Assembly (NCBI RefSeq): GCF_053078305.1
Contig: NZ_CP166879.1
DNA length: 64,000 nt
Direction: 5' to 3' (one strand)
Under the pieces are notes generated by a model. It was not told where the DNA came from. It saw nothing but the letters and a program-made list of their open reading frames with translations, and searched no databases. Position 1 is the stretch's first letter. Each line of letters begins with the position of its first letter. The position numbers and the translations under genes are program-made. This document shows positions 46,123-46,662 of this stretch, one piece after another.

Positions 46123-46138
46123 TCACCTTTCTCCGGGC

Positions 46139-46168
46139 GAAAAAAAACCTGCCGCAGCAGGTTTTATT
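46139..46168 (-). terminator. intrinsic terminator ending the lipoprotein insert
   Basis: Hairpin aacctgccgcagcaggtt flanked by A-run and T-run, just upstream of the tape-measure start. Confidence 0.6.
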
Positions 46169-46185
46169 CATCAGCAGATTATTGA

Positions 46186-46599
46186 TTAAGTTTTGGGTAC
46201 CAGCCCGGGATTCAGACTTTCCGGACTCAGTGTATACATACCGCCATTGAATGGGTCCACAAGCAACCAGCCAACAATACCACCAAAGACAAAGTTACCA
46301 CCAATGTACCATCCATTAGCCGATGCCTTGATCGGCAGCGTTACGGGCTGATAATTCTCTTTACTGAATGTGATCTGATAACTCTTTTTCCCGAAGTAAC
46401 TGCCGTCAGATTTTTCAAGTGTTACATTCTGCGGTGTTTTGCCCGAAGAAATTGTTTTCCCTGACTCATCTTTAATAATAAAATCCGCACCAGACGGATT
46501 ACTGTTTACCTGTACAGTCTGCGTTTTATCTCCGACAATGGTTGCACACCCCGTCAGAAAAAAGCTGACAGAGAAAATCAACAGCATGAATTTCTTCAT
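46186..46599 (-). CDS. prophage lipoprotein of unknown function
   Basis: 137-aa ORF with lipobox FFLTGC after signal peptide MKKFMLLIFSVSFFL; AT-rich upstream, terminator downstream. Confidence 0.7.
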   Translation of the reverse strand: MKKFMLLIFSVSFFLTGCATIVGDKTQTVQVNSNPSGADFIIKDESGKTISSGKTPQNVTLEKSDGSYFGKKSYQITFSKENYQPVTLPIKASANGWYIGGNFVFGGIVGWLLVDPFNGGMYTLSPESLNPGLVPKT

Positions 46600-46662
46600 A
46601 AAATGGCTCCGTTCAGTTAATTTTCCCCGAAAATACTGTAATAAAGATCTGCAAAGTTAAAA

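What the first reader, a model, noticed from the sequence alone, without database searches (positions are those of the whole stretch)
46123..46662. Lipoprotein insert between the tape measure gene and the G/T chaperones
A 137-aa ORF with a clear lipobox (FFLTGC) and a beta-rich mature domain is inserted where lambda has nothing. It has an AT-rich upstream region and an intrinsic terminator just before the tape-measure start. Phage lipoproteins at such positions often mediate superinfection exclusion by blocking an outer-membrane receptor (Llp of T5 and Cor of phi80-like phages are precedents). Function here is unknown.
Basis: partly seen in the sequence, partly recalled or inferred. Interest (0 to 1): 0.5.

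Follow-up and report, generated by a model that had tools for sequence, protein, structure and literature searches.

The report
Lipoprotein moron before the tape-measure gene
An E. coli prophage carries an extra, horizontally acquired gene for an outer-membrane-type lipoprotein in the same slot as the classic HK97 "moron"; the gene is real and conserved, its family is large and uncharacterised, and its role (probably changing the lysogen's envelope, perhaps to exclude other phages) is untested.

Summary
A 137-aa ORF (46186..46599, minus strand) with the lipobox L-T-G-C18 lies between the tail-chaperone gene T and the tape-measure gene. Phage lambda has no gap at this junction.

It has most of the marks of a moron:
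- GC is 38-47% against 56-62% in the flanks.
- It is absent from about 1,240 E. coli genomes that share the same junction.
- It occupies the junction where HK97 carries its gp15 exclusion moron.

The hairpin with a T-run before the tape-measure start is real, but it belongs to the phage backbone. The copy in the window has no convincing sigma-70 promoter.

The protein belongs to PHROG 6823 (phage epsilon34 gene 15) and to a very large family of bacterial lipoproteins of unknown function. It has a PEGA/transthyretin-like beta-sandwich followed by a conserved glycine-rich hydrophobic C-terminal motif.

Temperate phages carry this gene in at least five different accessory slots, including the P22 sieA region. 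I found no homology to Llp or Cor (by family scans), nor to Bor or HK97 gp15 (by direct comparison). Known-defence models also gave no match.

The best guess is a prophage-encoded envelope factor, most plausibly for phage exclusion (about 0.35). A Bor-like host-fitness role is nearly as likely. I rate it a new member of a known kind, of moderate interest.

The parts
46172..46665 (-). Inserted cassette (moron), about 494 bp. It runs from the region of the gpT stop codon to just upstream of the backbone hairpin.
   Evidence: The alignment with BP-4795 and E. coli JNEC-KY202 sets the boundaries. Megablast homology to insert-free phages stops at window position 46171. GC is 0.38-0.47 against 0.56-0.62 in the flanks.
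46186..46599 (-). Lipoprotein ORF, 137 aa plus stop codon.
   Evidence: ORF list and sequence. PHROG 6823 match at 2.8e-73. 346 homologues. dN/dS 0.14-0.20. The exact protein is on record in 631 E. coli contigs.
46546..46599 (-). Signal peptide (aa 1-17) and the lipidated Cys18, with lipobox L-T-G-C. Ala at +2 implies sorting to the outer membrane.
   Evidence: Read directly from the sequence. Cys18 is invariant and Gly17 nearly invariant in the 26-sequence family alignment. The outer-membrane sorting rule (no Asp at +2) is established knowledge applied by inference.
46318..46524 (-). Beta-sandwich domain (aa 26-94), PEGA/transthyretin-like.
46222..46317 (-). Conserved glycine-rich hydrophobic C-terminal motif (aa 95-126): NGWYIGGNFVFGGIVGWLLVDPFNGGMYTLSP.
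   Evidence: This is the most conserved block of the family and is also kept in distant members. The model has low confidence here, with two short helices. Its mean Kyte-Doolittle hydropathy is below that of a classical transmembrane helix.
46600..46662 (-). AT-rich 5' spacer. It holds the Shine-Dalgarno GGAG (46607..46610) and only weak promoter-like hexamers (TTAACT-19-TATTTT and TTTTAA-16-TACAGT).
   Evidence: Sequence. The consensus scan found no promoter on this strand. The PWM scan scores 8.0 against a shuffle median of 7.6. Cassettes in other phages score 9.8-11.5 at the same distance from the ATG.
46140..46165 (-). Intrinsic-terminator-like hairpin with a T8 run. It is a backbone feature that the cassette shares.
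   Evidence: RNA folding gives -16.5 kcal/mol, z = -2.8. An inverted repeat is detected there (I4). The hairpin is present in BP-4795 and about 1,240 E. coli genomes without the insert. HK97 has an analogous terminator after gp15.
46663..46944 (-). Tail assembly protein T (upstream flank). Its last ~10 codons differ from those of BP-4795.
   Evidence: RefSeq annotation of the 99.5%-identical locus. Pfam Phage_tail_T. Alignment.
42880..46122 (-). Tape-measure protein of HK97 type (downstream flank), with RBS GGAGAAAGG at 46126..46134.
   Evidence: ORF list. Pfam TMP_3, Phage_HK97_TLTM and Tape_meas_lam_C. It has the same N-terminus, MATLRELI, as HK97 gp16.

Best explanation
The feature is a moron: a horizontally acquired single-gene cassette inserted at the T/tape-measure junction of an HK97/BP-4795-type lambdoid prophage of E. 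coli.

Shown:
- It encodes a prolipoprotein with a signal peptidase II lipobox.
- The mature 120-aa part is a PEGA/transthyretin-like beta-sandwich followed by a conserved glycine-rich hydrophobic motif.
- It belongs to the phage epsilon34 gene 15 / PHROG 6823 family and to a very large family of bacterial envelope lipoproteins.
- Temperate phages carry the gene in several different accessory slots.

Inferred:
- The protein is lipidated and sent by the Lol pathway to the outer membrane, facing the periplasm, because residue +2 is Ala.
- It is made from the prophage through a weak promoter of its own, and certainly during late transcription, which reads through the tail operon.
- At the outer membrane or in the periplasm it alters or masks an envelope component that incoming phages need for adsorption or DNA entry.
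- This would protect the lysogen, and would also protect released progeny from being wasted on cell debris.

I put the identity and architecture at 0.9 or higher. I put the exclusion function at about 0.35.
For: - Insertion and foreign composition.
- Same slot and same layout as the HK97 gp15 moron (T stop, gene, hairpin with T-run, RBS, ATG of a tape-measure protein starting MATLRELI). HK97 gp15 is an experimentally shown exclusion protein (PMC3594210).
- Homologues at 68-70% identity lie between ejection gene 16 and mnt in P22-like phages. In P22 this region holds sieA (PMC2629481; PMC10883804).
- Other slots: just upstream of the tape-measure gene in Proteus prophages, between I and J in Pseudescherichia-type prophages, and after an N-like gene in the immunity region of an Arsenophonus prophage.
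- Cassettes in other phages have promoter-like elements that end 29-35 nt before the ATG, and their own terminators.
- Lipobox, invariant Cys and strong purifying selection.
- One family member is fused to an OmpA-like outer-membrane beta-barrel, which supports an outer-membrane setting.
- The same tail operon usually also carries a porin moron. This prophage lineage therefore collects outer-membrane genes.
Against: - No experiment or paper addresses the function. Six literature searches found no functional study of the family.
- PADLOC gave no match. No annotated exclusion family matched in PHROGs, NCBIfam or Pfam.
- Most of the wider family is chromosomal, stand-alone and unrelated to phages. 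The ancestral role is therefore a general envelope function.
- Nearly the same protein occurs in siphoviruses and podoviruses with different receptors. This argues against masking of the phage's own specific receptor.
- The window copy lacks a convincing promoter, so expression in the lysogen is not assured.
Confidence: 0.35

Rival explanations
1. The gene is a host-fitness or virulence conversion gene of the Bor/Iss/Lom kind. The lipoprotein carries out its ancestral envelope role for the lysogen, such as outer-membrane stability, stress or serum resistance, or adhesion. It has no direct effect on phages.
For: - The family is huge and mostly chromosomal in many phyla: 5,543 50%-identity clusters, with 746 AFDB50 matches at E <= 0.001, in genera including Pseudomonas, Acinetobacter, Neisseria and Bacteroidota.
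- Chromosomal copies are stand-alone genes with no conserved phage or defence neighbours.
- The same protein sits in phages with unrelated adsorption machinery.
- The carriers are STEC and clinical E. coli strains.
- Bor is a precedent for a small outer-membrane lipoprotein moron (PMC3594210).
Against: - There is no homology to Bor beyond the signal peptide.
- The slots it occupies are the ones known for exclusion genes.
- There are no phenotype data.
Confidence: 0.3
2. The gene is a passenger with no current selected function in this prophage. It would be a recently acquired cassette that persists by hitch-hiking.
For: - It is rare among complete genomes: 4 of 5,426, against about 1,240 with the empty junction.
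- The promoter of this copy is weak or absent.
- One E. coli copy has GTG in place of the ATG start.
Against: - dN/dS is 0.14-0.20 among E. coli copies.
- The exact protein is found in 631 contigs and a close variant in 798.
- The ORF is intact in all contexts inspected.
- Capture into five different phage slots implies repeated selection.
Confidence: 0.1
3. The protein works in the lytic cycle or in virion assembly, for example as a tail-assembly accessory or a lysis helper, rather than as a conversion gene.
For: It lies inside the late tail operon, directly upstream of the tape-measure gene. It must therefore be transcribed late in infection.
Against: - More than 1,200 related prophages and 91 phage records with the same tail genes lack it.
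- It is exported as a lipoprotein, whereas tails assemble in the cytoplasm.
- It also occurs in podoviruses, in an immunity region and in phage-free chromosomes.
- The NCBIfam spanin model matched only the signal peptide, at E = 0.13.
Confidence: 0.04

Closest known systems
HK97 gp15 moron (superinfection exclusion; YebO-like inner-membrane protein)
   Same: It sits at the same junction, between tail chaperone T and a homologous HK97-type tape-measure gene. The layout is also the same: gene, hairpin with T-run, RBS, tape-measure ATG (PMC3594210). Both are low-GC insertions absent from related phages.
   Different: The proteins are unrelated (hhalign probability 2%). gp15 is a 62-aa single-pass inner-membrane protein. 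This one is a 137-aa lipoprotein with an outer-membrane sorting signal and a beta-sandwich domain.
Salmonella phage epsilon34 gene 15 / PHROG 6823
   Same: It is a true homologue: 69% identity over the full length, and PHROG 6823 at 2.8e-73. It also lies in a moron region and has its own annotated terminator.
   Different: It lies in a podovirus, between ejection gene 16 and mnt, not in a siphovirus tail operon. Its function was reported as unknown (PMC2629481).
T5 Llp and the Cor proteins of phi80, N15 and HK022 (receptor-masking exclusion proteins)
   Same: They are small phage-encoded proteins, exported to the envelope, that could protect the lysogen and the phage progeny. This is the mode of action proposed here.
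   Different: No sequence relationship was detected; the only significant PHROG is an unannotated one. From my own knowledge, their genes lie elsewhere in the genome, beside the receptor-binding or tail-fibre genes. Their target, FhuA, is known, while no target is known here.
Lambda Bor / Iss outer-membrane lipoprotein
   Same: It is a small lipoprotein moron of a lambdoid phage that is expressed from the prophage. It also has a glycine-rich hydrophobic stretch near the C-terminus.
   Different: hhalign aligns only the signal peptide and lipobox (29 columns). Pfam Lambda_Bor gave no match. The slot differs: bor lies beside the lysis genes.
Ltp of Streptococcus thermophilus phage TP-J34 (exclusion lipoprotein that targets the tape-measure protein)
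   Same: It is a prophage lipoprotein that blocks DNA entry by acting on the incoming tape-measure protein (cited in PMC10883804; PMC3952083). This is a conceivable target here, given the adjacency to an HK97-type tape-measure gene.
   Different: Its host is Gram-positive, its fold differs (helix-turn-helix repeats, from my own knowledge), and its gene is not in the tail operon. No homology was tested or expected.
SlyB-type outer-membrane lipoproteins (glycine-zipper hairpin plus beta-sandwich)
   Same: The resemblance is only in parts list: a lipid anchor, a glycine-rich hydrophobic helical hairpin and a small beta-sandwich. This comes from my own knowledge and is a lead, not a test.
   Different: The domain order is reversed. 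SlyB did not appear in the PDB sequence search or the fold searches.

Membership tests
Moron (Juhala/Hendrix definition) | Extra DNA between two genes that are adjacent in related phages | tested here: met
   T and the tape-measure gene are 51 nt apart in BP-4795 and overlap in lambda. The window has about 494 extra bp. The insert is found in 4 of 1,244 E. coli genomes that share the junction.
Moron (Juhala/Hendrix definition) | Base composition differs from the surrounding genes | tested here: met
   GC is 0.38-0.47 in the insert against 0.56-0.62 in the flanks.
Moron (Juhala/Hendrix definition) | Own promoter | tested here: inconclusive
   No consensus hit on the coding strand. The best PWM score is 8.0 against a shuffle median of 7.6. 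Homologous cassettes elsewhere score 9.8-11.5 at the same position.
Moron (Juhala/Hendrix definition) | Own terminator | tested here: inconclusive
   A strong hairpin with a T8 run follows the gene, but it also exists in insert-free backbones. Cassettes in epsilon34 and Proteus prophages carry terminators of their own.
Moron (Juhala/Hendrix definition) | Expressed from the repressed prophage | not testable with these tools
   This needs RNA-seq or 5'-RACE on a lysogen.
Bacterial lipoprotein (signal peptidase II substrate) | Positively charged n-region, hydrophobic h-region and lipobox [LVI][ASTVI][GAS]C | tested here: met
   The N-terminus is MKK-FMLLIFSVSFF-LTG-C18. The Cys is invariant across the family.
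Bacterial lipoprotein (signal peptidase II substrate) | Lipid modification and outer-membrane localisation | not testable with these tools
   Inferred from Ala at +2 and from one family member fused to an OmpA-like barrel. It needs fractionation, globomycin treatment or palmitate labelling.
PHROG 6823 / epsilon34 gp15 family | Full-length significant match to the family profile | tested here: met
   E = 2.8e-73, with residues 2-137 on profile positions 1-136 of 139. Identity to epsilon34 gene 15 is 69%.
Pfam PEGA domain (PF08308) | Match to the Pfam model at a significant score | tested here: inconclusive
   E = 0.018, 15.4 bits, covering model positions 2-54 of 71. Relatives score even lower. 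The fold is a compatible small beta-sandwich. UniProt labels relatives 'PEGA domain-containing'.
Llp / Cor receptor-masking exclusion proteins | Sequence homology to Llp or Cor | tested here: not met
   The only significant PHROG is the unannotated 6823. NCBIfam and Pfam gave nothing. No direct pairwise comparison with Llp or Cor was run.
Llp / Cor receptor-masking exclusion proteins | Blocks a defined outer-membrane receptor (FhuA) | not testable with these tools
   This needs plating, adsorption and binding assays.
HK97 gp15 / YebO exclusion family | Sequence homology and a single-pass inner-membrane topology | tested here: not met
   hhalign probability is 2.3%. The query is a lipoprotein, not a transmembrane peptide.
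HK97 gp15 / YebO exclusion family | Position between T and the tape-measure gene | tested here: met
   Searches compared.
Bor / Iss family | Homology of the mature protein | tested here: not met
   hhalign aligns only the signal peptide and lipobox. Pfam Lambda_Bor gave no match.
Known anti-phage defence systems (PADLOC-DB 2.0) | Match to any defence-protein model | tested here: not met
   No families matched at E <= 1.

The most novel reading that the evidence does not exclude
The epsilon34-gp15/PHROG 6823 lipoproteins could be a new, widespread class of phage-borne outer-membrane exclusion factors. In this reading a beta-sandwich is held at the outer membrane by a lipid anchor and a conserved glycine-rich C-terminal hairpin. 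It would disable a common envelope step used by many phages, such as a porin, an OmpA-type secondary receptor or passage of the tail tip and tape-measure protein. That would explain why sipho- and podoviruses capture the gene into at least five different moron slots, and why here it is paired with a phage-encoded replacement porin.
Probability: 0.25. Interest if true: 0.6.

Novelty: new member of a known kind. Interest (0 to 1): 0.38.

Why it matters
Morons are the main route by which temperate phages change their host's surface, virulence and phage sensitivity. This one belongs to a very large lipoprotein family that nobody has characterised (over 5,500 clusters at 50% identity). Phages have picked the gene up repeatedly, and they place it in the slots that hold known exclusion genes.

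A simple expression-and-plating experiment could give a function to the phage copies. By extension it could also give a first functional lead for thousands of chromosomal 'PEGA domain-containing' lipoproteins in Proteobacteria and Bacteroidota. If no phage phenotype is found, the gene is still a candidate envelope or virulence modifier in Shiga-toxin-producing E. coli.

Tried and rejected
- **Family libraries.** NCBIfam matched only signal peptides, all far below the curated cut-offs. PADLOC gave nothing. Pfam gave only a sub-threshold PEGA hit.
- **PDB by sequence.** The best match was a marginal repeat hit to a collagen-adhesion protein.
- **Direct comparisons.** hhalign against HK97 gp15 and lambda Bor was negative.
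- **The 'YceK' label.** Some sources give relatives this name. No Pfam or NCBIfam match supports it. I did not test it by profile-profile comparison.
- **Conserved neighbours in chromosomal contexts.** I found none beyond a divergent HTH_3 gene in Pasteurellaceae.
- **Receptor inference from the J C-terminus.** It is lambda-J-like at 53% identity, which is uninformative.
- **Rfam on the region.** Only sub-threshold chance hits appeared.
- **Transposon-like ends.** There are no terminal inverted or target-site repeats, only a 10-nt direct repeat at the 5' junction.
- **Literature.** Searches for the family, for the PEGA lipoprotein and for prophage exclusion lipoproteins found no functional study.
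- **Tail-assembly role.** I considered and rejected it, because the protein is exported and is absent from most related phages.

Full report
**1. What is in the sequence**

On the minus strand, window 46186..46599 holds an ATG-initiated ORF of 137 codons. It begins MKKFMLLIFSVSFFLTGC. This is a charged n-region, an 11-residue hydrophobic core and the lipobox L-T-G-C18. A Shine-Dalgarno GGAG (46607..46610) lies 7 nt before the ATG.

The ORF sits between a 93-codon gene (46663..46944) and a 1080-codon gene (42880..46122). In E. coli chromosomes 99.5% identical over this stretch, RefSeq calls these 'phage tail assembly protein T' and 'phage tail tape measure protein', and calls the ORF itself 'putative periplasmic lipoprotein' or 'hypothetical protein'. 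Pfam hits recorded for the same genes on other contigs are Phage_TAC_1, Phage_tail_T and TMP_3/Phage_HK97_TLTM/Tape_meas_lam_C. In lambda, T and H overlap by 8 nt.

**2. The gene is real**

- It matches PHROG 6823 over its full length at E = 2.8e-73.
- It has 346 homologues in the 90%-identity clustered database.
- A profile built from 26 of them finds 5,543 clusters at 50% identity with E <= 0.001, and 2,063 with E <= 1e-10. The listed matches run from the lipobox to the C-terminal motif.
- The exact protein is on record in 631 E. coli contigs, and a close variant in 798.
- Against two other E. coli copies, dN/dS is 0.14 and 0.20.

**3. It is an insertion, and where it ends**

Megablast against 50,697 phage records and 5,426 complete E. 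coli genomes finds the first 72 nt of the query in 91 phage records and 1,244 genomes. These 72 nt are the tape-measure start plus 49 nt upstream. The lipoprotein itself is found in only 4 genomes and in no phage record.

Alignment with BP-4795 shows that homology to the insert-free backbone resumes at window position 46171, just before the hairpin. It is lost again inside the last ~10 codons of T. The insert is thus about 494 bp long. Its GC is 0.38-0.47 against 0.56-0.62 on both sides. No terminal repeats of a transposon type flank it. The only repeat is a 10-nt direct one, GGAAAATTAA, at the T stop codon and in the leader.

**4. The terminator and the promoter**

The hairpin AAAACCUGC-UGCG-GCAGGUUUU followed by more U residues (46140..46165) is stable (-16.5 kcal/mol, z = -2.8). 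It lies 5 nt before the tape-measure RBS GGAGAAAGG. It is also present, almost unchanged, between T and the tape-measure gene in BP-4795 and in the other insert-free genomes. It therefore belongs to the backbone, and the cassette merely ends in front of it.

On the coding strand upstream of the ORF, the consensus scan finds no promoter. My PWM scan gives at best TTAACT-19-TATTTT, with a score of 8.0. The best score in shuffled sequence has a median of 7.6 and a 95th percentile of 11.8.

The homologous cassettes in other phages do better:

| Context | Promoter-like element |
|---|---|
| epsilon34 | TTCACA-17-TAGGAT |
| an E. coli P22-like prophage | TTCACG-17-TAAGAT |
| Proteus prophages | TTGTAA-16-TATCAT |
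| Pseudescherichia-type prophages | TTGAAC-17-TAGGAT |

These score 9.8-11.5, and each ends 29-35 nt before the ATG. Each cassette is also followed by its own hairpin with a T-run.

The family therefore generally travels as a self-contained transcription unit. In this copy the -35 region coincides with the recombination joint at the T stop codon and looks degraded. Whatever the promoter does, the gene lies inside the late operon and must be transcribed during lytic growth. This last point follows from established lambdoid late antitermination and is an inference.

**5. The same slot as the archetypal moron**

In HK97, gene 15 lies between the T-equivalent frameshift product and the tape-measure gene. 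It is followed by an annotated terminator, an RBS and an ATG that opens a tape-measure protein starting MATLRELI. The window's tape-measure protein starts with the same residues.

The review PMC3594210 states that the term moron was first applied to this element, and that gp15 is an inner-membrane superinfection-exclusion protein expressed from the prophage. The window therefore shows a different cargo in the same slot. hhalign finds no relationship between the two proteins (probability 2%).

**6. The protein**

AlphaFold2 with the 26-sequence alignment gives a mean pLDDT of 76. Three regions stand out:
- a confident beta-sandwich over residues 26-94 (pLDDT about 93);
- a low-confidence pair of short helices at 96-113;
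- a final strand at 122-125.

Against AFDB50, 746 models match at E <= 0.001. The top ones align over 120-140 columns. They are labelled 'PEGA domain-containing protein' or 'Lipoprotein', and come from Salmonella, Xenorhabdus, Pseudomonas, Acinetobacter, Neisseria and Bacteroidota.

The most conserved blocks are C-A-T-I-x-G right after the lipidation site and N-G-W-Y-I-G-G-N-x-x-F-G-G-x-x-G-W-x-x-V-D-P-x-x-G-x-M-Y-x-x-x-P at residues 95-126. The second block is hydrophobic and glycine-rich. Its mean hydropathy over 19 residues falls short of a classical transmembrane helix.

Residue +2 is Ala, so by the Lol sorting rule the protein should go to the outer membrane. This is an inference. One distant member carries the module fused to an OmpA-like transmembrane barrel (E = 5.7e-15), which supports an outer-membrane setting.

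**7. Where relatives sit**

Close relatives (60-75% identity) occur in five phage slots:
- the T/tape-measure junction in E. coli;
- directly upstream of the tape-measure gene, after other accessory genes, in Proteus prophages with different tail chaperones;
- between I and J in Pseudescherichia-type prophages;
- between ejection gene 16 and mnt in the P22-like podoviruses epsilon34, Gally and vB_EcoP-720R6 and in an E. coli prophage;
- just after an N-like gene in the immunity region of an Arsenophonus prophage.

[quoted passage not shown] The paper places it in the 'ant moron', the region that holds sieA in P22 (PMC2629481).

Other relatives are plainly chromosomal:
- In Pasteurellaceae the gene is paired with a divergent HTH_3 regulator. 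In Actinobacillus succinogenes it is followed by a TbpB-like lipoprotein and a Slam gene.
- In Enterobacter it lies among metabolic genes.
- The 170-aa type occurs in assorted chromosomal contexts.

**8. What it most likely does**

The following are shown:
- an acquired cassette;
- a conserved exported lipoprotein;
- repeated capture by temperate phages into accessory slots, two of which are known for exclusion genes.

The following are inferred:
- an outer-membrane, periplasm-facing location;
- expression in lysogens and late in infection;
- action on an envelope component.

I commit to phage exclusion at the envelope as the single most likely function, at about 0.35. My reasons are the slots it occupies, the precedents of HK97 gp15 and SieA, and the tendency of this prophage lineage to collect outer-membrane genes. 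In 5 of the 6 E. coli contexts inspected, and in the window itself, an OmpC-family porin moron sits between M and L of the same tail operon.

Several points count against it:
- no match to any known defence or exclusion family;
- a predominantly chromosomal wider family;
- nearly the same protein in phages with unrelated adsorption devices.

These make a Bor-like host-fitness role almost as likely (about 0.30). A role in tail assembly is very unlikely. The protein is exported, and more than 1,200 related prophages do without it.

**9. Comparison and novelty**

In position it is closest to the HK97 gp15 moron. In ancestry it is closest to epsilon34 gene 15. In proposed action it is closest to Llp or Cor, or alternatively Bor. 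It is a member only of the epsilon34-gp15/PHROG 6823 family.

A moron at this junction is textbook, and the gene family was already noted, as unknown, in 2008. The new elements are modest:
- the cargo at this slot;
- the mobility of the cassette across at least five phage slots;
- its membership of a very large uncharacterised lipoprotein family.

I rate it a new member of a known kind, with moderate interest (0.38). If the family proved to be a general outer-membrane exclusion factor, interest would rise to about 0.6. I estimate the probability of that at about 0.25.

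Noticed in passing
window 41193..42347 (minus strand): A second envelope moron lies in the same tail operon. It is a 384-aa OmpC-family porin (NCBIfam OmpC, 507.9 bits against a cut-off of 484) inserted between gpM and gpL. The same arrangement occurs in 91 of 5,426 complete E. coli genomes. It accompanies the lipoprotein in 5 of the 6 E. coli contexts inspected. In strains JNEC-KY202 and 2012EL-2448 the two morons are in different prophages.
   Followed up: partly
window 57642..57989 (minus strand): A third exported accessory protein lies near the lysis genes. 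It is a 115-aa lipoprotein (lipobox LVMGC) made of a TonB C-terminal domain (TIGR01352, 2.9e-15). RefSeq annotates it as 'TonB family protein' in the related prophage.
   Followed up: no
window 46140..46165, and the same junction in BP-4795 (L002, about 3024..3074): A terminator-like hairpin sits between T and the tape-measure gene in about 1,240 E. coli genomes and 91 phage records that have no gene there. It could be an 'empty' moron slot or the scar of a lost cassette inside a late operon.
   Followed up: partly
L010 8001..10364 (Actinobacillus succinogenes-type contig): A chromosomal homologue is followed after 13 nt by a TbpB_B_D/FHBP_C-type lipoprotein and then a Slam (surface lipoprotein assembly modulator) gene. 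A divergent HTH_3 regulator lies upstream. This may hint that some family members are linked to surface-lipoprotein export. Other Pasteurellaceae keep only the HTH_3 neighbour.
   Followed up: partly
L003 5940..6003, L021 5940..6003, L013 7940..8003: The cassette leaders in epsilon34, Pseudescherichia-type and E. coli P22-like prophages share a '-10'-like TAGGAT/TAAGAT. They also contain a TTTCC...GGAAA complementarity that could pair with the Shine-Dalgarno sequence, suggesting possible translational control. The window copy lacks an obvious equivalent.
   Followed up: no
window 46617..46626 and 46663..46672: A 10-nt direct repeat (GGAAAATTAA on the coding strand) occurs at the gpT stop codon and again in the lipoprotein leader. 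It may be microhomology left by the recombination that joined the cassette to T.
   Followed up: no
window 49606..50829 (minus strand): A 407-aa ORF directly after the portal gene contains four tandem copies of a ~54-aa unit (DDVRPMLEQMVKEAVSHIPVPRDGRDYDPEVLQKAVNDAVANIPQPADGKS...). In related RefSeq records the portal region is annotated as one frameshifted pseudogene.
   Followed up: no
window 32558..34285 (minus strand): A 575-aa tail-fibre-region ORF has collagen-like Gly-X-Y repeats, with NCBIfam hits to the collagen-like adhesins Lcl, Scl1 and Scl2 at 1e-22 to 1e-23.
   Followed up: no
protein P0141 (metagenomic family member): The lipoprotein module is fused to a C-terminal OmpA-like transmembrane beta-barrel (Pfam OmpA_membrane, 5.7e-15). 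Other long members carry Pro/Ala-rich tails or an unknown 240-aa domain.
   Followed up: partly
L022 6087..6500 (E. coli STEC299): In this 95.8%-identical copy the start codon is GTG instead of ATG, and RefSeq annotates a shorter 133-aa product that starts at Met5.
   Followed up: no
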